Source: Candidatus Omnitrophota bacterium
GTDB lineage: Bacteria; Omnitrophota; Gorgyraeia; Gygaellales; Profunditerraquicolaceae
Assembly: GCA_003598025.1 (NCBI GenBank)
Contig: QZKH01000002.1
Location: forward strand, 74,133-138,132
DNA length: 64,000 nt
Direction: 5' to 3'
A model generated the notes under the pieces. That model made no database searches. It was given only the letters and a program-made list of their open reading frames with translations, and was not told the DNA's origin. A program made the translations under genes and the position numbers. How positions within the stretch are numbered: position 1 is the first letter of the stretch; each line of letters begins with the position of its first letter. This document shows positions 7,174 through 63,602 of the stretch, piece by piece.

Positions 7174-8199
7174 ATGAACATAAATAATTTCAACCTTGAA
7201 GAGTTGGAGAAAGTGTTGCGCGAATGTGGTCAGCCTGTTTTTCGCGCCCGGCAGATTTTTGCCTGGGTACATAAGAGGAAAGTCTTTGATTTCGGAAAAA
7301 TGTCGGATATGCCGTCAAGCTTAAGAGAAAAACTCAAAAATAAATATTCTATTCAGGATTTAAGCATAAGGAACATAACACGGTCAAGAGACGGAACGCA
7401 AAAATACCTTTTTTCTTTGAATGATGCCAATCTTATTGAAGCGGTGAATATCCCTGCGGCAGGCAGGGTTACGGGATGCGTTTCTACGCAAGCCGGCTGC
7501 AGGTTTGCTTGTAAATTTTGCGCAAGCGGAATTCAGGGATTTGTCAGGAACCTGGAATGTTCTGAGATAATTGAGCAGATTCTTGTCCTTGACAGAGATG
7601 CTTCCGGCGGCCTCACTAACCTCGTTTTTATGGGCACAGGCGAGCCGTTAGATAATTACGATAATGTTATCAAGGCGGCAAGGATAATAAATTCGCAATA
7701 CAGCATTAATCTTGGCGCAAGGAAGATAACCATTTCAACTTCCGGTGTCATTGCCGGCATAGAGCGTCTCAGTAACGAAGGGCTGCAAATCGAACTATCG
7801 GTTTCTTTGCATGCTGCAGATGATAGGACAAGGTCAAGCCTGATGCCCATAAACAAGGTTTATCCTCTAAGTGATCTGATTAAAGCCTGCAGAAAATATA
7901 CCGAGAAAACTAACCGGCAGATAACTTTCGAATACATCCTTATTAAGGGCATTAATTCTACATTGCAGGATGCGCTTAATTTAGTTAAAGTATTAAAAGG
8001 GTTATCCACAATCAAGGTTAATCTTATAGTATCTAATATCGTAGAAGAATCCGGACTTGAGCCGGCGGGCCTGAAAGATGCCGCTGCTTTTAAAGGGTGC
8101 CTTATTAAACACGGCATAAACGTGACGCTGCGTAAGCCGCGCGGACAGGATATTGATGCTGCCTGTGGGCAATTGAGGTTGAGATATGGGGAAGGATAG
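7174..8199 (+). CDS. rlmN: dual-specificity RNA methyltransferase RlmN (radical SAM)
   Basis: 341 aa. N-terminal FRARQIFAWV, radical-SAM CRFACKFCASG, FMGTGEPLDN, and C-terminal DIDAACGQL. Confidence 0.9.
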   Translation: MNINNFNLEELEKVLRECGQPVFRARQIFAWVHKRKVFDFGKMSDMPSSLREKLKNKYSIQDLSIRNITRSRDGTQKYLFSLNDANLIEAVNIPAAGRVTGCVSTQAGCRFACKFCASGIQGFVRNLECSEIIEQILVLDRDASGGLTNLVFMGTGEPLDNYDNVIKAARIINSQYSINLGARKITISTSGVIAGIERLSNEGLQIELSVSLHAADDRTRSSLMPINKVYPLSDLIKACRKYTEKTNRQITFEYILIKGINSTLQDALNLVKVLKGLSTIKVNLIVSNIVEESGLEPAGLKDAAAFKGCLIKHGINVTLRKPRGQDIDAACGQLRLRYGEG

Positions 8200-8866
8200 T
8201 TCACTGTTCATAGTTCATAGTTCATGGATTAAGGCGGCAAATTTTATCTTGGCCTTATTTTTATTCTTTGGGATCATCGGGTGTCAGAAGAGGGATATAA
8301 AGAATATTGATTCTAAGGGCACGAATATCATTTGTTTCGGGGATAGCATAACCTTTGGTTACGGCGTTGACCCGGATAAAAGCTATCCTGCGGTTTTAGC
8401 CGGCATAACGCAGTGGCAGGTCATTAACGCAGGGGTAGATGGCGATACTTCAACCGATGGCTTAAACAGGATTAACAAAGATGTTTTAGAAAAAGACCCC
8501 TTACTTGTTGTTATTGAGTTCGGCGGTAATGATTTTCTCAAGAAAATACCAAAAACGCAAACCGCTGAAAACGTAAATAAAATGATTGATCATATACATG
8601 GACGCGGCTCAATGGTAGCGTTGTTAGATATAAGTACAGGCATTTTACTTAGCGATTACCATAAGCTTTTGAAAGACATAGCATCAGAAAGAGGCGCTAT
8701 TTTTATCCCAAAGATTTTAACAGGAATAATCACTAACCCCAGTATGAAGAGCGATTTCCTGCATCCTAATGAAAATGGTTACGCTGTTATCGCCCAACGT
8801 GTTTACCGCACAATTATCCCTTACCTGAATAGGAATTTTACTTTAAAGAGCATCGCCAGCAAATAA
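8186..8866 (+). CDS. SGNH/GDSL hydrolase lipoprotein (TesA/arylesterase-like)
   Basis: Contains ICFGDSITFGYG (block I Ser), GGNDF (block III) and a lipobox FGIIGC. GAGG sits 7 nt before ATG 8186. The N-terminal residues SSLFIVHSSW are encoded by the heptamer array at 8199-8226. Confidence 0.8.
   Translation: MGKDSSLFIVHSSWIKAANFILALFLFFGIIGCQKRDIKNIDSKGTNIICFGDSITFGYGVDPDKSYPAVLAGITQWQVINAGVDGDTSTDGLNRINKDVLEKDPLLVVIEFGGNDFLKKIPKTQTAENVNKMIDHIHGRGSMVALLDISTGILLSDYHKLLKDIASERGAIFIPKILTGIITNPSMKSDFLHPNENGYAVIAQRVYRTIIPYLNRNFTLKSIASK
8199..8226. repeat. tandem heptamer array GTTCACT GTTCATA GTTCATA GTTCATG
   Basis: Read directly from the sequence: four contiguous 7-nt units. Member of the dispersed family (see findings). 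Confidence 0.9.
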
Positions 8867-8929: not shown

Positions 8930-9409
8930 GTGATGAGAAATATCCTTCACACGCCAATCCCTGAGAAAAGATATCGGGCCAGGGCTTTTGCCCTGGTAGA
9001 GACGCTTCTTGCCACGGCGATAATGGTGTTTGGGCTTTGCGCGATACTGATAACCTACATATCCTGCCTTTTACTTATTACTACCGCTAAGAACATTAAT
9101 ATAGCTACTAATGCTACGTTAAGCCTGATGGAGGGGATACGCAGCAGCGATTTTACACAGATATCCGCTAATTATAACGGATTAAATTTTGTTTTAAACG
9201 ATATACCTTTAAGCAGGGGAGTAGTTTATGTTGATGATACAAATGCCGAGCTTTTACAGGTGGATATAAGCGTGTGTTGGCAGCAGGGTAACAGGGTAAT
9301 CGGAGAAGATGCAAATTTAAACGGTATGCTTGATCCGGGAGAAGATGTAAATGGTAACGGGATCATTGATTCCACGGTAAAGGCGACAACTTTAATAGCC
9401 AACAGGTGA
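8930..9409 (+). CDS. type IV pilin-like minor pilin (PilV-like)
   Basis: Contains RA-FALVETLLATAIMVFGL, a prepilin-type N-terminal motif with the conserved Glu at +5 (Ala instead of Gly at -1). The C-terminal DANLNGMLDPGEDVNGNGIID looks like Ca-binding loops. Confidence 0.6.
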   Translation: MMRNILHTPIPEKRYRARAFALVETLLATAIMVFGLCAILITYISCLLLITTAKNINIATNATLSLMEGIRSSDFTQISANYNGLNFVLNDIPLSRGVVYVDDTNAELLQVDISVCWQQGNRVIGEDANLNGMLDPGEDVNGNGIIDSTVKATTLIANR

Positions 9410-11734: not shown

Positions 11735-11742
11735 CAATATAA

Positions 11743-11825
11743 TGCCGAGAGAGGGAGTTGAACCCTCACGAGGTTGCCCTCACCAGTTTTTGAGACTGGC
11801 GTGTATGCCATTCCACCACCTCGGC
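11743..11825 (-). tRNA. tRNA-Leu (anticodon CAA), type II with long variable arm
   Basis: Folded by hand. Acceptor GCCGAGG/TCTCGGC; anticodon arm CCAGT-CTCAAAA-ACTGG; variable stem GAGG/CCTC; T arm GAGGG-TTCAACT-CCCTC. CCA is not encoded. Confidence 0.9.
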
Positions 11826-11924
11826 ATAAGTAGATTTGTTTTGAGGTAAGAATATTTACCAGGAAATGCTAGCTACGGCATTTGCTGATTTGCCTTACTT
11901 TTAGCTACAGCAAATCAATCCTGG

Positions 11925-12271
11925 GGCCTTTTAGCCCGAAGGATTTGGACCGTTTTACGCTCGTTTAGTGCCACTTCAAATTTTCCTTGTCGGAAAATAG
12001 TTATGTGGTGGCGCCGCACTCGCTGCCTCACTTGTCGCTCGGCTACGCTCGTTGCGGCATCCACCAATTTTTTCCTTACCGGAAAATTAAAATCCAAGGC
12101 ACTGAACTCGCTACGGTCCTTGTCGGACCGTTTTACGCTCGTTTAGTGCCACTTCAAATTTTCCTTGTCGGAAAATTAAAATCCAAGGCACTGAACTCAC
12201 TACGGTCCTTGTCGGACCGTTTTACGCTCGTTTAGTGCCACTTCAAATTTTCCTTGTCGGAAAATTTGAAG
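11925..12271. repeat. about four copies of an 89-bp tandem repeat (two near-identical, one partial, one diverged) rich in hairpins
   Basis: The core GGACCGTTTTACGCTCGTTTAGTGCCACTTCAAATTTTCCTTGTCGGAAAAT starts at 11947, 12125 and 12214 (period 89). A ~70% diverged copy lies at 11999-12085. The array fills the spacer between the two minus-strand tRNA genes. Confidence 0.85.
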
Positions 12272-12344
<73 letters not shown>

Positions 12345-12364: not shown

Positions 12365-12519
12365 TCCCGAGCTACCTTCTCTTGTCTTATGTACCGAGGA
12401 GCAGCCCCATATTTAAAATTTAAAGCTCAGTATACACTCCCAGTCCCGACGCTCATTTGCATTCGGTCGGGATGCCGACTTCACGTATTTTGTGAACGTC
12501 GGCACTGAGCTACAGCCCC
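12365..12519 (-). other. two degenerate, interrupted copies of the tRNA-Ala 5' segment (pseudo-tRNA fragments)
   Basis: On the minus strand, 12519-12505 equals tRNA positions 1-15 (GGGGCTGTAGCTCAG). A 61-nt insert of two hairpins follows (12504-12444), then CTGGGAG (positions 16-22) at 12443-12437. A second fragment has GGGGCTG at 12408-12402 and TAGCTCGGGA at 12374-12365. Confidence 0.6.
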
Positions 12520-12594
12520 ATATTGGCTTAAATTTAGTGTATTAAATATAACATTCGGCTATAGCATTGTCAATACCTTCTGGCTGCCAAACAA

Positions 12595-12691
12595 GTTCAT
12601 GGTTGATAGTTCAAGGTTCATGGACTATGTTAGCGCTTATAGCTATTAAGATTATCTATGAACTATGAACCATGAACAATGAACTATAAAC
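12595..12691. repeat. inverted pair of heptamer arrays (GTTCATN x4, 34-nt spacer, NATGAAC x5)
   Basis: Left arm 12595-12622: GTTCATG GTTGATA GTTCAAG GTTCATG. Right arm 12657-12691: TATGAAC TATGAAC CATGAAC AATGAAC TATAAAC. Confidence 0.9.
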
Positions 12692-12701
12692 CAAGTAGCC
12701 C

Positions 12702-12730
12702 TTGACGCTCCTTACCCCCTGGGGTATAAT
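12702..12730 (+). promoter_or_regulatory. near-consensus sigma70 promoter TTGACG-17-TATAAT (nfo operon)
   Basis: TTGACG at 12702-12707, a 17-nt spacer, and TATAAT at 12725-12730. Confidence 0.6.
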
Positions 12731-13988: not shown

Positions 13989-16406
13989 ATGGAATATGAT
14001 TTTAAGGAAATAGAGAAGAAGTGGCAGGGATATTGGGATAAGAGCGGTCTATACCGCGCTGAATATTCTCCGGGCAATAAGAAATATTATTTGCTTGAGA
14101 TGTTCCCTTATCCTTCGGGCAAGATACATATGGGCCATGTAAGGAATTATGCCATTGCCGACGTTGCCGCAAGGTTTAAGTTGATGCAGGGTTATAATGT
14201 CCTGCATCCGATGGGTTTTGACGCTTTTGGCCAGCCTGCAGAAAACGCTGCAATCAAGAACAAAACCAAGCCCGATGCCTGGACCCATAAATGCATAGAC
14301 TGGATGCGCGTTGAGCTTAAGAAGATGGGTTTTTCTTATGATTGGGCAAGGGAGGTATCTACCTGCGACAGCACTTATTATAAGTGGAACCAATGGATAT
14401 TCCTTAAAATGTTTGAGAAGGGCCTTGCTTACAAGAAAGCCTCGAATGTAAACTGGTGCCCGAACTGCGAAACCACACTTGCTAATGAAGAAGTGATAAG
14501 TGAAGAGTGCTGGAGATGCCATAGCAAAGTTGAGCAGCGTAAACTTGACCAGTGGTTTTTAAAGATCACCGGATATAAAGAACGGCTGCTTGAAGATCTG
14601 GGAAAGCTTAAAAATTGGCCGGAGCGCGTTATTGCAATGCAGTCTAACTGGATCGGCAGGAGCCAGGGCGTGGAGATTTATTTTAAAATTAAAGGCAATG
14701 ATGATATCACGATACCGGTTTTTACCACCCGTGTAGATACTATATTCGGCGCCAGCTACGTAGTTTTAGCACCGGAGCATCCTTTGGTCGAGGATATTAT
14801 AAAAGGCATAGCACATGAGCCAGAGATCAGGAAGTTTATCAATAAGGTAAAGAAAGAAAAAAAGAACATACTCTCCAAAGAAGATGTTAAAAAAGAGGGT
14901 ATTTTCAGCGGCCGTTATTGTATCAACCCGGTGAATAATGAAACTATCCCTGTTTGGATCGGTGATTATGTTTTAATGGAGTATGGCACAGGCGCGATTA
15001 TGGCAGTGCCGGCTCATGACCAGAGGGATTTTCTTTTTGCTAAAGAACATGGGTTACCTATGAGAATAGTTATAAACAGTCCACAGTCCACAGTCCACAG
15101 TCCACAGGAATTGACTGAAGCGTATGAGGGGGATGGTTTCCAGGTTAATTCTGGGCAATTTGATGGATTGGATAACCAAAAGGCAAAGTCCGAGATTGCA
15201 AAGTGGATGGAGGCAAAAGGGATAGGCAAAATCCAGACACACTGGAGGCTGCGCGATTGGCTTATATCAAGACAGCGATATTGGGGTACACCTATACCGG
15301 TTATATATTGTGAAAAATGCGGGATCGTGCCTGTCCCATATCATGACCTGCCTGTTGAATTGCCGGCTGATGCCCCTTTTACCGGTGAGGGTGGCAGCCC
15401 CTTGGCAAAAGTGAAAAAATTTGTAAATGTCAAATGCCCTAAATGCAATGGCTCTGCCAGGCGCGAAACAGATACCATGGCTACTTTTTTTGACTCGTCG
15501 TGGTATTTCCTGAGATTCTGTTCCCCTTCTTTTAATGAGGCGCCTTTTGATAAGCAGGAGGCTAGATATTGGATGCCAGTTGACCAGTATATCGGGGGAA
15601 TAGAGCACGCTATTTTACATTTACTCTATTCACGCTTTTTTACTAAATTTTTCAAAGACCTGGGGATGGTGGAATTTGACGAGCCGTTTACATGCCTGCT
15701 TACACAGGGGATGGTCCTTAAAGAAGGCGAAGTAATGTCAAAGTCAAAAGGTAATATAGTTGACCCAGATTCGATTATAAAGAAATACGGTGCAGATGCC
15801 CTGCGGCTTTTTATACTTTTTGCCGCGCCTCCGGAAACTGAACTGGAGTGGGATGACAGGGGGATTGAGGGAGCATCCAAGTTCTTAAACAGGGTATGGC
15901 GCCTGCAGGATAACCTAAGGGATGGCCCGGCAGATAAATCAGGAGGGCTGGCCACCGCAAAAATACTGCATAAAACAGTTAAGAAAGTAACTGATGATAT
16001 AAATCAGTTTAAATTTAATACCGCGATTGCCAGTTTAATGGAGCTGACAAATGTTTTATATCAGTCCGGGGCAGATAAAGAGGATTATTCTACGTTAGTT
16101 GTGTTGCTGGCCCCGATAGCCCCGCATTTTGCAGAGCAAATTTGGGAGAATTTAGGGAACAAAGAATCTGTATTTAAGGCAAAATGGCCGCAGTATAACC
16201 CGGATTATCTTTTTGATTCTGTTGTTGATATAGTAGTCCAGGTAAATGGTAAGCTGCGCTCTAAGCTCGCAGTCCCGTTTGATGTTAGAGAAGAAGAGTT
16301 AAAAGAATTAGTCTTGCGTGATCAGAAGGTACAACCCTGGATTAGCGGTAAGAATATCAGAAGTTTTATATTCGTGCCCAACAAACTTGTCAACATCGTA
16401 GTCTGA
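13989..16406 (+). CDS. leuS: leucine--tRNA ligase
   Basis: 805 aa. Contains HMGHVRNY (HIGH), VMSKSKGN (KMSKS) and a CP1 editing domain. Confidence 0.97.
15076..15108. repeat. tandem heptamer array (ACAGTCC x4.7, equivalent to GTCCACA units) inside leuS
   Basis: Read directly from the sequence. Encodes [11 protein letters not shown] in a variable linker after the HDQRDF...GLP segment. Confidence 0.9.
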
Positions 16407-16839: not shown

Positions 16840-16935
16840 GTTCATAGTTCATAGATCATGGTTCATAGATAATTTATGCTGACGCTTACATTTATCCATG
16901 CTAAGACAACCAACCATGAACCATGCTCTATGAAC
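16840..16935. repeat. inverted pair of heptamer arrays in the divergent intergenic region
   Basis: Left arm 16840-16867: GTTCATA GTTCATA GATCATG GTTCATA. After a 47-nt spacer, right arm 16915-16935: CATGAAC CATGCTC TATGAAC. Confidence 0.85.
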
Positions 16936-16989: not shown

Positions 16990-17322
16990 GTGCTTTTCTT
17001 AACCAAAGATGAAAAAAAGGCAATAATATTTATTGCGGCGCTTATCTTTATTGGGATCAGCAGTAAAATTTTATTAAAGAAGTGCCAAAAAATGGAAAGA
17101 ATGTATTTTGTTTCTTCCGACGAGTTCAAGCTGGACATAAATAAAGCCAAGTATGAAGATTTATTGGGCATCAAAGGCATAGGGCCTTCTTTGGCTGATA
17201 GGATAATTGAATACAGGAATTTGCAGGGGGGATTTAAAAATATAGAGGAATTAAAAAATATCCATGGTGTCGGAGAAAATAAATTCTGCAGGCTGAAGGA
17301 TTTCTTGAAAGCCGATCAATGA
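16990..17322 (+). CDS. comEA: ComEA family DNA-binding competence protein (helix-hairpin-helix)
   Basis: Contains INKAKYEDLLGIKGIGPSLADRIIEYR...FKNIEELKNIHGVGENKF (HhH motifs) and an N-terminal TM. GTG 16990 lies 8 nt after AGGAGG. The track start at 16876 runs through the repeat array. Confidence 0.75.
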   Translation: MLFLTKDEKKAIIFIAALIFIGISSKILLKKCQKMERMYFVSSDEFKLDINKAKYEDLLGIKGIGPSLADRIIEYRNLQGGFKNIEELKNIHGVGENKFCRLKDFLKADQ

Positions 17323-18703: not shown

Positions 18704-18731
18704 CCGTAACTATGAACTATGGACCATGAAC
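18704..18731. repeat. tandem heptamer array CCGTAAC TATGAAC TATGGAC CATGAAC
   Basis: Read directly. Starts 9 nt after the comEC stop and ends 25 nt upstream of a TTGACA hexamer (18756-18761). Confidence 0.85.
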
Positions 18732-33658: not shown

Positions 33659-33716
33659 GTTCACTGAGCGTAGTTTATAGAAGTATGACCCACATATCCT
33701 CTGTGAACTATGAACC
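33659..33716. repeat. degenerate inverted heptamer element
   Basis: Left arm 33659-33679: GTTCACT GAGCGTA GTTTATA. After a 23-nt spacer, right arm 33703-33716: TGTGAAC TATGAAC. Lies in a divergent intergenic region. Confidence 0.6.
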
Positions 33717-62303: not shown

Positions 62304-62345
62304 CATGAACCACGAACTATGAACTATGAACTATGAACTATGAAC
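62304..62345. repeat. six-unit tandem heptamer array CATGAAC CACGAAC (TATGAAC)x4
   Basis: Read directly from the sequence. The array ends 16 nt before the -35 hexamer. Confidence 0.92.
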
Positions 62346-62361
62346 TAATATGCTATACCCT

Positions 62362-62389
62362 TTGACTATTATCAGCCCGCTGTTATAAT
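62362..62389 (+). promoter_or_regulatory. near-consensus sigma70 promoter TTGACT-16-TATAAT
   Basis: Hexamers at 62362-62367 and 62384-62389, followed by a GGAGG RBS and ATG 62415. Confidence 0.6.
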
Positions 62390-62414: not shown

Positions 62415-63602
62415 ATGAAGACAGAGATAGCAAAGAATATTTATTCGGTAGGGGTGCTTGATTGGAATATGCGTTCTTTTCACGGGCACACTTATTCAAC
62501 AAGCAGGGGCACGACTTATAATTCTTATCTTATAATCGATGATAAAGTTACCCTTGTAGACGGGGTCTTAGGTTCATTTTCAGGGGAACTGATTAATAAC
62601 ATAAGCGAGATTGTTTCGCCTGAGAAAATAGACTACATTATTGTAAATCACCTTGAAGCTGACCATACGGGGGCATTACCCGAGGTGATTAAGATTTGTC
62701 CTAACGCAAGAATATTTTGCTCCCAGAAATGTAAAGAAGGATTATATAAGCATTATTATGAAAATTGGAATTTTAATGTCGTAAAAACCGGGGATATCCT
62801 TAAGCTGGGAGAAAAAACACTGTCTTTTATCGAGGCCCCCATGATCCATTGGCCGGATAGCATGTTTACATATTGCCGGCAGGACGCCCTGCTTATGCCT
62901 AACGATGCATTCGGACAGCACTATGCAACCAGCCAAAGATTTGATGATCAGGTTGACCAATGCGAACTTATGGATGAAGCTGTAAAATATTACTCAAATA
63001 TTCTTTGGCCGTTGAGTGCAATAATCTCCAAGAAAATAGAGGAGATTGAGAAAATGGATATCCCGATTAAGACAATTGCTCCTAGCCACGGGATAGTATG
63101 GCGTAGGGACCCAGCCAAAATAATAAATGCTTATAAAAAATGGTCTAAAAATGAATCAGAGCCCAAGGTTGTAATCATCTATGAGACTATGTGGGGCTCA
63201 ACTGAGAAAATGGCAAGGGCCATATCGCAGGGGCTTATGGATTCAGGTGTTAAGGTCAAGATTTTCGATGTTGCAGTCTCTGACAGGACGGAGATGACAA
63301 AAGAAATGATGGAGAGCCGGGGCTATTTGTTTGGTTCTTCCACGCATGATAATGATATGCTCCCGACAATGGCGGGATTCATGGAATTCGTAAAGGGCCT
63401 GAAGCCTAAGAACAGGCTGGTTTCAGTTTTTGGTTCTTATGGCTGGGCAGGAGGCGCGGTAAAAGAGATTGAAGGAGTTATAAAAGAGACAGGCCTGAAT
63501 ATAAACCAACCTTCTTTATCAATCCAATATGTACCTGATAACAAGGCTTTAAAAGACTGCTACAATTTTGGCGTAAATTTCAGCAAGCTGGTCAAGTTTT
63601 AA
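62415..63602 (+). CDS. flavodiiron protein (FprA-type O2/NO reductase)
   Basis: Contains MKTEIAKNIYSVGV, the di-iron motif HLEADHTG and a C-terminal flavodoxin domain (VIIYETMWGSTEKMA). ATG 62415 follows GGAGG; the track start at 62388 lies within the -10 box. Confidence 0.9.
   Translation: MKTEIAKNIYSVGVLDWNMRSFHGHTYSTSRGTTYNSYLIIDDKVTLVDGVLGSFSGELINNISEIVSPEKIDYIIVNHLEADHTGALPEVIKICPNARIFCSQKCKEGLYKHYYENWNFNVVKTGDILKLGEKTLSFIEAPMIHWPDSMFTYCRQDALLMPNDAFGQHYATSQRFDDQVDQCELMDEAVKYYSNILWPLSAIISKKIEEIEKMDIPIKTIAPSHGIVWRRDPAKIINAYKKWSKNESEPKVVIIYETMWGSTEKMARAISQGLMDSGVKVKIFDVAVSDRTEMTKEMMESRGYLFGSSTHDNDMLPTMAGFMEFVKGLKPKNRLVSVFGSYGWAGGAVKEIEGVIKETGLNINQPSLSIQYVPDNKALKDCYNFGVNFSKLVKF

What the first reader, a model, noticed from the sequence alone, without database searches (positions are those of the whole stretch)
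12595..12730. Inverted arrays of a 7-bp unit abutting a consensus promoter: best example of a dispersed GTTCATA/TATGAAC family
Positions 12595-12622 read GTTCATG GTTGATA GTTCAAG GTTCATG. After 34 nt, positions 12657-12691 read TATGAAC TATGAAC CATGAAC AATGAAC TATAAAC, which is the reverse-complement unit. Ten nt later comes TTGACG-17-TATAAT. The same unit recurs at 8199-8226, 16840-16935, 18704-18731, 33659-33716 and 62304-62345, and as a transition variant in leuS (15076-15108).

All three divergent intergenic regions that carry the element (12595, 16840, 33659) have two arms, and each arm reads NATGAAC toward its flanking gene. I do not recognise this as REP/BIME, a MITE with terminal repeats, CRISPR or any named element, and no transposase is nearby. 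A 7-bp period is not helically phased. That argues for a dedicated binding protein, a slipped-strand or cruciform structure, or a replication-slippage hotspot rather than a classical operator.
Basis: seen in the sequence. Interest (0 to 1): 0.65.

Follow-up and report, generated by a model that had tools for sequence, protein, structure and literature searches.

The report
Seven-base repeat arrays upstream of promoters
The window really does carry a dispersed family of head-to-tail 7-base repeats (GTTCATN), often as mirror-image pairs just upstream of promoters; they are a new example of the long-known but still unexplained heptanucleotide repeats of bacteria, here in an uncultivated Omnitrophota genome.

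Summary
Eight loci in 64 kb carry 2-6 tandem GTTCATN units: 18 three-unit matches against 0.05 expected. No other heptamer forms intergenic arrays in the window. The genome is a Candidatus Omnitrophota MAG.

The element is not REP, MITE, CRISPR or an uptake sequence. It belongs to the known class of dispersed prokaryotic heptanucleotide repeats (cyanobacterial STRR, Beggiatoa TAACTGA, the paired heptamers of Geobacter). This particular unit was not found in the searchable literature.

- GTTCATN arrays occur in many phyla, about 88% of them intergenic, and inverted pairs outnumber direct pairs 29 to 6.
- In this genome, and in Aerophobetes-like metagenome contigs, arrays read NATGAAC towards sigma-70-like -35 boxes 8-24 nt away.
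- A related Omnitrophota species has arrays at syntenic positions.
- One orthologous array differs by exactly two units, which points to slippage.
- Elsewhere arrays lie in every kind of intergenic region, and one is translated in frame.

My best guess (0.4) is a heptad-by-heptad binding site for an unknown DNA-binding protein, as with the omega repressor, whose length changes by slippage. Neutral or selfish microsatellite is the main rival (0.3).

The leuS repeat is not a family member. It is a separate coding repeat at a conserved position.

The parts
12595..12622 (+). Left arm: 4 tandem heptads, GTTCATG GTTGATA GTTCAAG GTTCATG. On the minus strand it reads NATGAAC towards the tRNA-side promoter.
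   Evidence: Read directly. Pattern hits. Array caller.
12623..12656 (.). 34-nt non-repetitive spacer between the two arms. It is unrelated to the spacer of the second pair (16868-16914).
   Evidence: The arms can pair as an imperfect hairpin (-16.8 kcal/mol, z = -4.2), but only around a large loop.
12657..12691 (-). Right arm: 5 tandem heptads, TATGAAC TATGAAC CATGAAC AATGAAC TATAAAC. It reads towards the nfo promoter.
   Evidence: (TRF period 7, 5.1 copies).
12702..12730 (+). Sigma-70-like promoter TTGACG-17-TATAAT (11 of 12), 10 nt after the right arm and upstream of nfo-REC-leuS. The same promoter is conserved in relative L124, where no array adjoins it.
   Evidence: Promoter scan. Whole-window scan. 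L124 sequence.
12545..12573 (-). Sigma-70-like promoter TTGACA-17-TATATT with an extended TG (11 of 12), 21 nt beyond the left arm. It points towards the tRNA-Ala/tRNA-Leu cluster.
   Evidence: tRNAs.
8199..8226 (+). 4 heptads, GTTCACT GTTCATA GTTCATA GTTCATG, lying in frame inside the N-terminus of a GDSL lipoprotein gene (encoding ..SSLFIVHSSW..). Unit variants avoid any in-frame TAG.
   Evidence: The same insertion is present in L124 and absent from L121 and L127.
16840..16867 (+). Left arm of the second inverted pair (4 heptads). A promoter-like TTTGCA-18-TATAAT (16825-16796, minus strand) starts 14 nt away and points at a receiver-domain gene.
16915..16935 (-). Right arm of the second inverted pair (3 heptads: CATGAAC CATGCTC TATGAAC), upstream of comEA-comEC.
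   Evidence: comEA in relatives is 109 aa, so the true start is probably near 16993.
18705..18731 (-). 3 heptads (TATGAAC TATGGAC CATGAAC) between the comEC stop codon and a TTGACA box 24 nt downstream, upstream of the bamD-like gene.
33702..33715 (-). 2 heptads (TGTGAAC TATGAAC), 14 nt upstream of TTGAAC-17-TAGAAT and ahead of the adenosine-kinase gene. A degenerate opposite arm lies at 33659-33679.
62304..62345 (-). 6 heptads, the longest array in the window. TTGACT-16-TATAAT (62362-62389, 11 of 12) starts 16 nt downstream, upstream of a flavodiiron-protein gene.

Best explanation
The arrays are a genome-specific family of dispersed heptanucleotide tandem repeats of the STRR / long simple-sequence-repeat class. 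I propose that their 6-bp core, GTTCRT (ATGAAC on the other strand), is kept the same at many loci because a trans-acting, sequence-specific DNA-binding factor recognises it.

The proposed mechanism:
1. Each 7-bp unit is one binding site.
2. Three to six contiguous units are coated cooperatively, one protomer or dimer per heptad, as the ribbon-helix-helix omega repressor/ParB of pSM19035 does on its own heptads.
3. In this Omnitrophota genome the arrays lie in the untranscribed DNA upstream of sigma-70-type promoters. By my placement from the measured gaps this is about -45 to -90. Each arm reads NATGAAC towards its promoter, one arm per promoter in divergent regions.
4. The bound array would therefore act as a generic upstream module: an activator or UP-like contact, or an insulator between neighbouring transcription units. 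It would not be the operator of one regulon.
5. Array length changes in whole units by replication slippage. Opposite-facing arms arise by inverted duplication.

Shown here: the arrays, the conserved core with a free seventh base, polarity, proximity to -35 boxes, persistence at syntenic sites, and a whole-unit indel. Inferred: the protein, cooperative coating, and any effect on transcription.
For: **One unit only in this genome.** Every intergenic period-7 array in the window is GTTCATN (7 non-coding loci). The only other period-7 tract is the coding leuS repeat. Unit-blind slippage should give a mix of units.

**Conserved core, free seventh base.**
- Positions 1-6 have entropy of at most 0.5 bit; position 7 has 1.35 bit (window). 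The units were chosen by match to GTTCAT, so this contrast is partly built in.
- In other genomes the seventh base follows genome G+C: C in 61% of units where G+C exceeds 0.55.
- Adjacent units share the seventh base in only 73% of cases.

**Age together with shared core.**
- Relative L124 (LeuRS 76% identical) has GTTCATR arrays at the same rlmN/GDSL site.
- L124 also has an inverted GTTCGTA/TACGAAC pair in the same tRNA-nfo neighbourhood. Its left arm ends 8 nt from TTGACC-17-TATAAA.
- The leuS repeat, which has no constraint on its unit, has a different unit in each of four species.

**Promoter proximity and polarity in the window.**
- Four of 7 arrays have a promoter-like site scoring at least 10 of 12 that starts 10-21 nt downstream in the NATGAAC direction. 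None has one in the other direction.
- Three of the 11 best promoter matches in the 64 kb (11 of 12) directly follow arrays.

**The architecture recurs elsewhere.**
- A metagenome scan for two units, then 8-30 nt, then TTGAC-17-TATAAT, returned 23 loci.
- Eighteen of them have 3 or more in-phase units, although only 2 were required.
- The gap from last unit to -35 is 8-11 nt in 14 of the 23.
- Several loci are Candidatus Aerophobetes, upstream of housekeeping genes such as pfkB and PBP1A.

**DNA-level action.** The flagged pair lies between two divergent -35 boxes and so is not expected to be transcribed. Any function there is at the DNA level.

**Precedent.** Omega/ParB of pSM19035 binds contiguous 7-bp heptads in direct or inverted orientation and needs at least 4 for full activity. 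Here the modal array length is 4 units.

**Length change in whole units.** An orthologous PBP1A-promoter array has 4 units in some lineages and 2 in another, an exact 14-nt indel with the gap to -35 preserved.
Against: - No candidate protein was identified. The 30 window proteins scanned include Fur and Rrf2 regulators but no ribbon-helix-helix protein.
- The downstream genes share no theme: nfo-leuS, tRNAs, comEA/EC, bamD, adenosine kinase, flavodiiron protein; and pfkB, PBP1A, recO, S15, rnpA elsewhere.
- Across 120 loci from other phyla, arrays lie in tandem (91), divergent (28) and convergent (29) intergenic regions. There is no orientation bias relative to genes (50 against 41), and only 1 of 180 has a strong promoter downstream.
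- In the metagenome loci, most arrays not selected for a promoter lack one. L417 has arrays in most of its intergenic regions, in either orientation.
- One array is translated in frame. One in L124 lies just before a ribosome-binding site inside an operon.
- L124 keeps the nfo promoter without an adjacent array.
- Within the window, array-bearing intergenic regions do not have strong promoters significantly more often than the others (5 of 8 against 8 of 19).
- Composition-matched control heptamers are only 2-4 times rarer in viral contigs (79 against 41 and 22). Cross-phylum occurrence of this unit is therefore weak evidence by itself.
Confidence: 0.4

Rival explanations
1. Non-adaptive or selfish microsatellite. 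The replication machinery of this lineage slips readily on 7-8-nt units. Arrays arise and change length by slippage, and inverted copies arise by strand switching. They persist wherever they do no harm, which in a compact genome is mostly the DNA just upstream of -35 boxes. Negative supercoiling behind strong divergent promoters may favour the slipped intermediates. Any effect on expression is incidental.
For: - Heptanucleotide repeats are reported as the most abundant long simple-sequence repeats in most of the repeat-rich prokaryotic genomes surveyed, and polymerase slippage is the proposed cause.
- There is a whole-unit (14-nt) indel between orthologous arrays.
- A perfect 7- or 8-nt repeat is maintained inside leuS in four species, with turnover of the unit. 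This points to strong short-period slippage in this lineage.
- Arrays also occur in frame in a signal peptide, in operon spacers and in convergent intergenic regions.
- Neither a shared regulon nor an enriched neighbouring gene family was found.
- Array-bearing intergenic regions do not have significantly more strong promoters.
- Control heptamers are found at the same order of magnitude.
Against: - Unit-blind slippage does not explain why all intergenic arrays in the window share one core.
- It does not explain why that core persists in a species about 25-30% diverged in protein sequence, while the leuS repeat changed its unit.
- It does not explain why the seventh base varies within arrays.
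- It does not explain why all non-coding arrays seen in the two Omnitrophota genomes read NATGAAC towards the downstream gene.
- Two strains 99.1% identical have arrays of identical length, so the arrays are not hypermutable on that timescale.
Confidence: 0.3
2. REPIN-like mobile hairpin. An inverted pair of arrays is the mobile unit, copied to new intergenic sites by a single-copy trans-acting transposase, as RAYT does for REP elements. Single arrays are decayed halves.
For: - Within 150 nt, inverted pairs far outnumber direct pairs: 31 against 6 including the window, 29 against 6 without it.
- Pairs fold as hairpins (z = -4.2 and -4.8).
- In L010, two pairs in one genome share a nearly identical central loop, and a second heptamer family forms nested outer arms.
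- Arrays at 16840-16935 and 18705 have no counterpart in L124, so arrays have been gained or lost since the two species split.
Against: - The spacers of the two window pairs are unrelated in sequence and length (34 and 47 nt).
- I saw no target-site duplications.
- Arm lengths and seventh bases do not match between arms.
- No transposase was found among the 30 window proteins scanned or among the listed families flanking arrays in other genomes.
- REP units are themselves palindromic, whereas these units are direct repeats.
Confidence: 0.08
3. Structural DNA element. The arrays act without a dedicated protein, through cruciform or slipped-strand extrusion or unusual flexibility that absorbs negative supercoils between divergent promoters or helps upstream DNA wrap RNA polymerase.
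For: - Both two-armed loci lie between divergent promoters.
- Arm complementarity is 95% over 19 nt, and the folds are better than shuffles.
- Three units span 21 bp, about two helical turns (arithmetic).
Against: - Loops of 34-47 nt disfavour cruciform extrusion (established knowledge).
- There is no compensatory matching of the seventh base between arms.
- Single-armed arrays are common.
- A purely structural role does not need a fixed 6-bp core or a fixed polarity.
Confidence: 0.07
4. RNA-level element. Transcribed arrays act in mRNA leaders or trailers, as a binding platform for a post-transcriptional regulator (as suggested for TAACTGA repeats) or as stop codons in all three frames (ATGAACN carries TGA; GTTCATA carries TAG) that end stray translation.
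For: - In L124 one array ends about 10 nt before a ribosome-binding site. In L417 one overlaps a start codon.
- TAACTGA repeats in Beggiatoaceae lie just upstream of start codons.
- Because 7 is coprime to 3, three units put TGA in every frame (read directly from the sequence).
Against: - The flagged arrays and the 16840/16915 pair lie between divergent -35 boxes, so they are not expected to be transcribed.
- Rfam finds nothing there.
- One array is translated straight through.
Confidence: 0.05

Closest known systems
Cyanobacterial STRR (short tandemly repeated repetitive sequences) and, more broadly, prokaryotic heptanucleotide long simple-sequence repeats (Mazel 1990; Mrazek 2007, as summarised in PMC4679880 and PMC4692102)
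   Same: Head-to-tail 7-nt units, a few to tens of copies, dispersed at many mostly intergenic loci of one genome, with function unknown. GTTCATN arrays sit directly beside classical TTGGTCA (STRR2) arrays in Nostocaceae contigs (L033).
   Different: The unit (GTTCATN) and the hosts (Omnitrophota, Aerophobetes and many other phyla) differ. In this window a single unit family has the intergenic regions to itself, whereas filamentous cyanobacteria carry many families. The arrays are short (2-6 units) and polar with respect to promoters.
TAACTGA direct repeats of marine Beggiatoaceae (MacGregor 2015, PMC4679880)
   Same: One heptamer dominates. There are 2-6 copies per set and many sets per genome, the sets are intergenic with a fixed orientation towards the downstream gene, the downstream genes have no common function, and the same unit is scattered in unrelated phyla.
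   Different: TAACTGA sets lie within a few nucleotides of start codons, so a translational role was proposed. Here the arrays lie upstream of -35 boxes and often come as inverted pairs; Beggiatoa had a single inverted set.
Paired tandem hepta- and octanucleotide 'global regulator binding sites' of Geobacter metallireducens (Aklujkar 2009, PMC2700814)
   Same: Four or five tandem 7-8-nt units, mostly found as pairs on opposite strands, at dozens of loci, and interpreted as sites for an unknown global regulator.
   Different: The units differ (MTYCTGA, GTTGCTYN, GGACCGG) and so does the phylum. No binding protein is known there either.
Omega repressor / ParB heptad operators and parS of plasmid pSM19035 (PMC9499535)
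   Same: Contiguous, non-helically-phased 7-bp units in direct and inverted orientation at promoters. At least 4 contiguous heptads are needed for full activity. This shows that a 7-bp period is compatible with a classical operator.
   Different: The unit is WATCACW (from my own knowledge). That system is plasmid-borne, has only a few sites, and overlaps the promoters it represses. Here no cognate protein is known, the arms are separated by 34-47 nt, and the sites are chromosomal and numerous.
TTTTGAT heptad repeats of the Vibrio cholerae ctxAB promoter, and the 7-bp repeats of the Haemophilus influenzae hmw promoters
   Same: Tandem 7-bp units in a promoter region whose number is linked to expression. 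The ctx heptads recruit transcriptional regulators (abstracts listed).
   Different: Those are single-locus virulence promoters with strain-variable copy number. Here the genes are housekeeping, the loci are many, and no length difference was seen between strains 99.1% identical.
REP/BIME and REPIN elements
   Same: Short extragenic repeats dispersed through intergenic regions, often as inverted doublets able to form hairpins.
   Different: REP units are 20-40-nt imperfect palindromes mobilised by RAYT transposases. Here the unit is a 7-nt direct repeat, and no such enzyme was found among the genes examined.

Membership tests
Dispersed heptanucleotide tandem repeats (STRR / LSSR class) | Three or more head-to-tail copies of a 7-nt unit | tested here: met
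   TRF reports period 7 at 8196, 12656, 16840, 16912, 18708 and 62305.
Dispersed heptanucleotide tandem repeats (STRR / LSSR class) | The same unit recurs at many separate loci of one genome, far above chance | tested here: met
   8 loci in 64 kb; 18 pattern hits against 0.05 expected. Of the 41 GTTCAT hexamers, 24 lie in arrays.
Dispersed heptanucleotide tandem repeats (STRR / LSSR class) | Predominantly intergenic location | tested here: met
   7 of 8 window loci are non-coding. In 120 loci from other genomes, 148 of 168 classifiable arrays are intergenic.
Dispersed heptanucleotide tandem repeats (STRR / LSSR class) | Length changes in whole units between relatives (slippage) | tested here: met
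   A 14-nt (2-unit) indel separates the orthologous PBP1A-promoter arrays of L409 and L408/L413. No change was seen between L124 and L125 (99.1% identical).
STRR in the strict sense (Calothrix/Nostoc families) | Unit is CCCCAGT, TTGGTCA or CAACAGT, in a heterocystous cyanobacterium | tested here: not met
   The unit is GTTCATN and the host is Candidatus Omnitrophota. GTTCATN arrays do co-occur with TTGGTCA arrays in Nostocaceae contigs. The three STRR units are quoted from my own knowledge.
REP / BIME / REPIN | The unit is itself an imperfect palindrome of 20-40 nt, with a RAYT transposase in the genome | tested here: not met
   The unit is a 7-nt direct repeat and only pairs of arrays are palindromic. 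No transposase was found among the window genes scanned or the listed families flanking arrays elsewhere. The rest of the genome could not be searched.
MITE | Terminal inverted repeats around a conserved internal sequence, flanked by target-site duplications | tested here: not met
   The internal spacers of the two pairs are unrelated (12623-12656 against 16868-16914). No duplications are visible at the outer ends.
CRISPR array | Repeats of 24-48 nt separated by unique spacers of similar length | tested here: not met
   The units are 7 nt and contiguous.
DNA uptake sequence (DUS/USS) | The motif is strongly over-represented as single copies throughout the genome, including in genes | tested here: not met
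   Outside arrays there are 17 GTTCAT hexamers, against about 27 expected for the whole window.
Omega-type ribbon-helix-helix heptad operator | Contiguous 7-bp sites in direct and inverted orientation, usually 4 or more, at promoters | tested here: met
   Arrays of 3-6 units in both orientations end 10-24 nt from -35 boxes. The comparator is described.
Omega-type ribbon-helix-helix heptad operator | Heptad consensus WATCACW and a cognate ribbon-helix-helix protein that binds it | tested here: not met
   The unit is NATGAAC. No such protein was found among the window proteins scanned. Binding itself cannot be tested with these tools.
Phase-variable contingency repeat | The repeat lies between -35 and -10 or out of frame in an ORF, so that a unit change switches expression, and it is polymorphic between close strains | tested here: not met
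   The arrays lie upstream of -35. The one coding array is in frame and conserved. Length is identical in strains 99.1% identical. The genes concerned are housekeeping.
UP element | A+T-rich tract at about -40 to -60 contacted by the RNA polymerase alpha C-terminal domain | tested here: inconclusive
   The position fits: by my placement the arrays end at about -45 to -60. The units are 71% A+T, but the sequence does not resemble the A/T-tract consensus, which I quote from my own knowledge. Contact with the polymerase cannot be tested here.

The most novel reading that the evidence does not exclude
(NATGAAC)n arrays are docking sites for an undescribed small DNA-binding protein found in several little-studied phyla (Omnitrophota, Aerophobetes and possibly Acidobacteriota, Bacteroidota and others). 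The protein coats non-helically-phased heptads one by one and acts as a general upstream activator or insulator of sigma-70 promoters. That would give a first molecular function to the heptanucleotide repeats that have been unexplained since 1990. A second, less likely novel reading: this lineage has an active process that writes or homogenises 7-8-nt repeats, which would also account for the perfect, positionally conserved repeat in leuS.
Probability: 0.2. Interest if true: 0.75.

Novelty: new member of a known kind. Interest (0 to 1): 0.45.

Why it matters
Dispersed heptanucleotide repeats are among the commonest long simple repeats in prokaryotes, and the papers read here report no established function for them. 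This family offers a handle for experiment. The arrays are short. They sit at a defined distance and polarity from near-consensus sigma-70 promoters of housekeeping genes. The same arrangement recurs in a second candidate phylum. Reporter assays, in vitro transcription and DNA-affinity capture can therefore be designed directly from sequence, even though the organisms are uncultivated.

If a heptad-binding protein exists, it would be a new global organiser of promoters. If none exists, the family is a clean example of unit-specific microsatellite dynamics in compact genomes. It is also a warning for gene callers: ATG-containing arrays produce false start codons here, near 16845 and probably near 62388.

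Tried and rejected
**Searches that could not be completed or lacked power**
- More of the same genome. Exact look-ups of a window receiver-domain protein and of the 100%-identical Nfo (P0001) found no contig on record. The window's own promoter arrays were also absent from the metagenome scan results. The census is therefore limited to 64 kb.
- Orientation control for the array-plus-promoter pattern. Both orientations gave 0 hits in viral contigs.
- Mrazek 2007 (PMC1895974) is not held. It is cited only through the summaries.

**Searches that found nothing**
- Literature search for the literal repeat returned only coincidental primer matches. The first search for STRR or heptanucleotide terms was swamped by ribosomal-frameshift papers.
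- Rfam at gathering and E-value thresholds shows nothing at the arrays.
- Pfam census of 150 ORFs flanking arrays: no family occurs more than twice.

**Control on cross-phylum conservation**
- GTTCATN x3 occurs in 79 viral contigs.
- The reversed unit occurs in 41 and a shuffled unit in 22.
- The same hexamer occurs in 42 at period 8 and in 90 at period 6.
- Occurrence of this unit in many phyla is therefore not in itself remarkable, and I dropped that argument.

**Matches considered from memory and rejected as mismatches, none tested**
- Fur, PerR, NarL-heptamer, Pho-box, DnaA-box, IHF and HutP motifs.
- ECF-sigma -35 motifs (TGAAC).
- The tRNA T-loop (GTTCRA).

**Other readings rejected**
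- Cruciform with compensatory seventh bases: the arms do not match at that position.
- DNA uptake sequence, suggested by the adjacent comEA/comEC genes: rejected on hexamer counts.
Full report
**1. The observation**

- 12595-12622 holds four units: GTTCATG GTTGATA GTTCAAG GTTCATG.
- A 34-nt spacer follows.
- 12657-12691 holds five units of the reverse complement: TATGAAC TATGAAC CATGAAC AATGAAC TATAAAC.
- Ten nucleotides later comes TTGACG-17-TATAAT.

A three-unit pattern with up to three mismatches matches 18 times in the window, against 0.05 expected from shuffles. Tandem Repeats Finder and my own unit-by-unit caller recover arrays at 8199, 12595, 12657, 16840, 16915, 18705, 33702 (two units only) and 62304.

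No other heptamer forms an intergenic array in the window. The only other period-7 tract is the one inside leuS. Of the 41 GTTCAT hexamers in the window, 24 lie in arrays. Isolated copies are not over-represented.

**2. The organism and the neighbourhood**

The window comes from a Candidatus Omnitrophota MAG. Nfo is 100% identical to a protein so named, and LeuRS is RJP29532.1 on a 409-kb contig. G+C is 41.5%.

The flagged arrays lie in a 396-nt region between a minus-strand tRNA cluster (tRNA-Ala 12271-12344, tRNA-Leu 11742-11826) and the plus-strand nfo / receiver-domain / leuS operon.

The two best sigma-70-like matches in 8-19 kb flank the arrays. TTGACG-17-TATAAT at 12702 lies 10 nt after the right arm. 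On the other strand, TTGACA-17-TATATT at 12573 lies 21 nt beyond the left arm. The two arms and their spacer therefore fill the untranscribed DNA between two divergent -35 boxes.

The other arrays show a similar layout:

| Array | Strand | Promoter-like site | Gap |
|---|---|---|---|
| 16840 | minus | TTTGCA-18-TATAAT | 14 nt |
| 62304 | plus | TTGACT-16-TATAAT | 16 nt |
| 18705 | plus | TTGACA box | 24 nt |
| 33702 | plus | TTGAAC-17-TAGAAT | 14 nt |

Four of seven arrays have a site scoring at least 10 of 12 within 30 nt in the NATGAAC direction. None has one in the other direction. Three of the eleven 11-of-12 matches in the whole window follow arrays.

This needs qualifying. Strong promoter-like sites are common in gene-upstream intergenic regions generally: 5 of 8 array-bearing pairs against 8 of 19 without arrays (corrected for the 62362 site). 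Within the window, proximity to promoters cannot be separated from lying in upstream intergenic DNA of a compact genome.

**3. Relatives**

Syntenic loci from three other Omnitrophota species were recovered (LeuRS 71-76% identical). L124, the closest, carries the family.
- It has the same in-frame GTTCATR array at the rlmN/GDSL junction.
- It has an array ending just before a ribosome-binding site inside an operon.
- It has an inverted pair, GTTCGTA x4 / TACGAAC x4, between divergent tRNA genes next to nfo. The left arm ends 8 nt from TTGACC-17-TATAAA.

The nfo promoter itself is conserved in L124 but has no adjacent array. L121 has a different heptamer (GGTTATT x5) at the GDSL site, and L127 has none.

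The GDSL array is translated. The window and L124 share a roughly 9-residue insertion, SSxFIVHSSW, in the signal-peptide n-region, and unit variants avoid in-frame TAG.

Two L124-type strains 99.1% identical have arrays of identical length with one point difference. The arrays at 16840-16935 and 18705 have no counterpart in L124, so arrays are gained or lost over time.

**4. Other phyla**

They span Cyanobacteria, Acidobacteriota, Bacteroidota, Planctomycetota, Chloroflexota, Gemmatimonadota, Nitrospirota and others, and several genomes were hit repeatedly.

In these loci:
- 148 of 168 classifiable arrays are intergenic.
- They lie in tandem (91), divergent (28) and convergent (29) contexts.
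- There is no orientation bias relative to genes: 50 against 41.
- Only 1 of 180 has a strong sigma-70-like site downstream.
- Inverted pairs within 150 nt outnumber direct pairs 29 to 6, with both inward-facing and outward-facing arrangements.
- The seventh base follows genome G+C and differs between adjacent units in 27% of cases.
- In Nostocaceae the arrays adjoin classical TTGGTCA repeats.
- No protein family is enriched next to arrays.

Controls in viral contigs show that the cross-phylum presence of this particular unit is weak evidence: 79 stretches for GTTCATN, against 41 and 22 for composition-matched heptamers, 42 at period 8 and 90 at period 6.

**5. The promoter architecture recurs**

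A metagenome scan for two units, then 8-30 nt, then TTGAC, a 16-18-nt spacer and TATAAT, gave 23 loci. My rough expectation is about 2. That figure is an inference, because I had to assume the size of the collection.
- Eighteen loci have three or more in-phase units, although only two were required.
- The gap from last unit to -35 is 8-11 nt in 14 of the 23.
- Several loci have an opposite-facing GTTCAT arm upstream.
- The A+T-rich group is Candidatus Aerophobetes.
- The downstream genes are housekeeping: pfkB, PBP1A, recO, S15, rnpA.
- Orthologous PBP1A-promoter arrays differ by an exact two-unit (14-nt) indel, with the gap to -35 unchanged.

In the same loci, most arrays that were not selected for a promoter have none. 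One contig (L417) has arrays in most of its intergenic regions, in either orientation.

**6. What it is**

By every defining feature tested, this is a member of the known class of dispersed heptanucleotide tandem repeats:
- STRR of cyanobacteria.
- Heptamers as the most abundant long simple-sequence repeats in most of the repeat-rich genomes surveyed.
- TAACTGA in Beggiatoaceae.
- Paired tandem heptamers proposed as global regulator sites in Geobacter.
- GGGAATC in Xanthomonas.

The GTTCATN unit itself was not found in the searchable literature. It is not REP/BIME, a MITE, CRISPR or an uptake sequence (see the membership table).

**7. How it most likely works**

Two facts resist a purely neutral slippage account.
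- All intergenic arrays in the window share one 6-bp core, while the seventh base varies.
- That core, allowing a transition at position 5 (GTTCRT), is found at syntenic and at lineage-specific sites in a species about 25-30% diverged in protein sequence. The leuS repeat, which has no constraint on its unit, changed its unit in every species.

A trans-acting, sequence-specific factor explains both most simply. The flagged arrays are not expected to be transcribed, so the factor should act on DNA.

The omega/ParB protein of pSM19035 shows that contiguous 7-bp sites in direct or inverted orientation can be a classical operator, and that four units can be a functional threshold. I therefore favour heptad-by-heptad protein binding upstream of promoters, with array length drifting by slippage, at a confidence of 0.4.

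The main rival, at 0.3, is a non-adaptive or selfish microsatellite tolerated in promoter-upstream DNA. It is supported by:
- the variety of contexts in which arrays occur;
- the translated array;
- the absence of a coherent regulon;
- the non-significant promoter table;
- the strong short-period slippage implied by the leuS repeat.

The REPIN-like, structural and RNA-level readings are less likely, for the reasons given under the rivals.

**8. Verdict**

It is a new member of a known but unexplained kind. Interest is moderate. The promoter-proximal, polar arrangement in two candidate phyla gives an old question a testable form.

Noticed in passing
window 15076-15107 (leuS); L121 11925-11957; L124 11934-11966; L127 10715-10746: A perfect 32-33-nt tandem repeat lies at the same loop of the LeuRS editing domain (after MRIVI) in four Omnitrophota species. 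Its units are related but different: ACAGTCC, CAAGCTC, AAGTCACC (period 8) and TCAGTCA. It encodes a variable Ser/Pro/Gln-rich loop. Only +/-3-unit changes keep the frame, so I cannot explain how it stays perfect while its unit turns over.
   Followed up: partly
window 11947-12266: An 89-bp unit is repeated 3.6 times (three 52-nt cores are 100% identical) between tRNA-Leu and tRNA-Ala. Each unit contains a 16-bp perfect hairpin (for example 12238-12253 with 12259-12274). No Rfam match at gathering score.
   Followed up: no
window 12394-12410 and 12505-12521 (minus strand): Two extra copies of the 5' end of tRNA-Ala (CTGAGCTACAGCCCCAT on the plus strand) lie upstream of the real gene, downstream of the 12573 promoter. 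The distal one is followed by two hairpins. The tRNA-Ala region also gives a sub-threshold tmRNA model hit (38.3 bits against a gathering score of 47). This may be a tRNA-like RNA or the remnant of a rearrangement.
   Followed up: no
window 8186-8260; L121 4806-4890: Heptamer arrays are translated within lipoprotein signal peptides of a GDSL lipase. GTTCATN encodes SSLFIVHSSW in the window and in L124. A different array (GGTTATT x5) encodes the hydrophobic core FVIGYWLLVIG in L121.
   Followed up: partly
L010 2800-2990 and 5160-5226 (Thermoanaerobaculia MAG): Nested palindromes are built from two heptamer families: outer arms of GATTTTR units and inner arms of GATGAAC units. Two copies in one genome share a nearly identical central loop, (G/T)TGCTTTG.
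   Followed up: no
L416 470-1660; L417 360-7930: These metagenome contigs are extremely rich in arrays. L416 has five NATGAAC arrays in 1.2 kb. L417 has arrays in most of its intergenic regions, in either orientation, one overlapping a start codon.
   Followed up: partly
window 9302-9370: A 36-bp unit repeated 1.9 times lies inside an ORF with no Pfam match (8930-9409). By my own reading it encodes a GEDANGNGIIDP-like motif, possibly a calcium-binding repeat.
   Followed up: no
window 16845, 16876 and 62388: Mechanical ORF starts are probably wrong where arrays or promoters supply an ATG. The receiver-domain ORF 'starts' at an ATG inside the array at 16845. comEA is 109 aa in relatives, implying a start near 16993. 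The flavodiiron gene more likely starts at 62415, after a GGAGG, than at the ATG overlapping the TATAAT box.
   Followed up: partly
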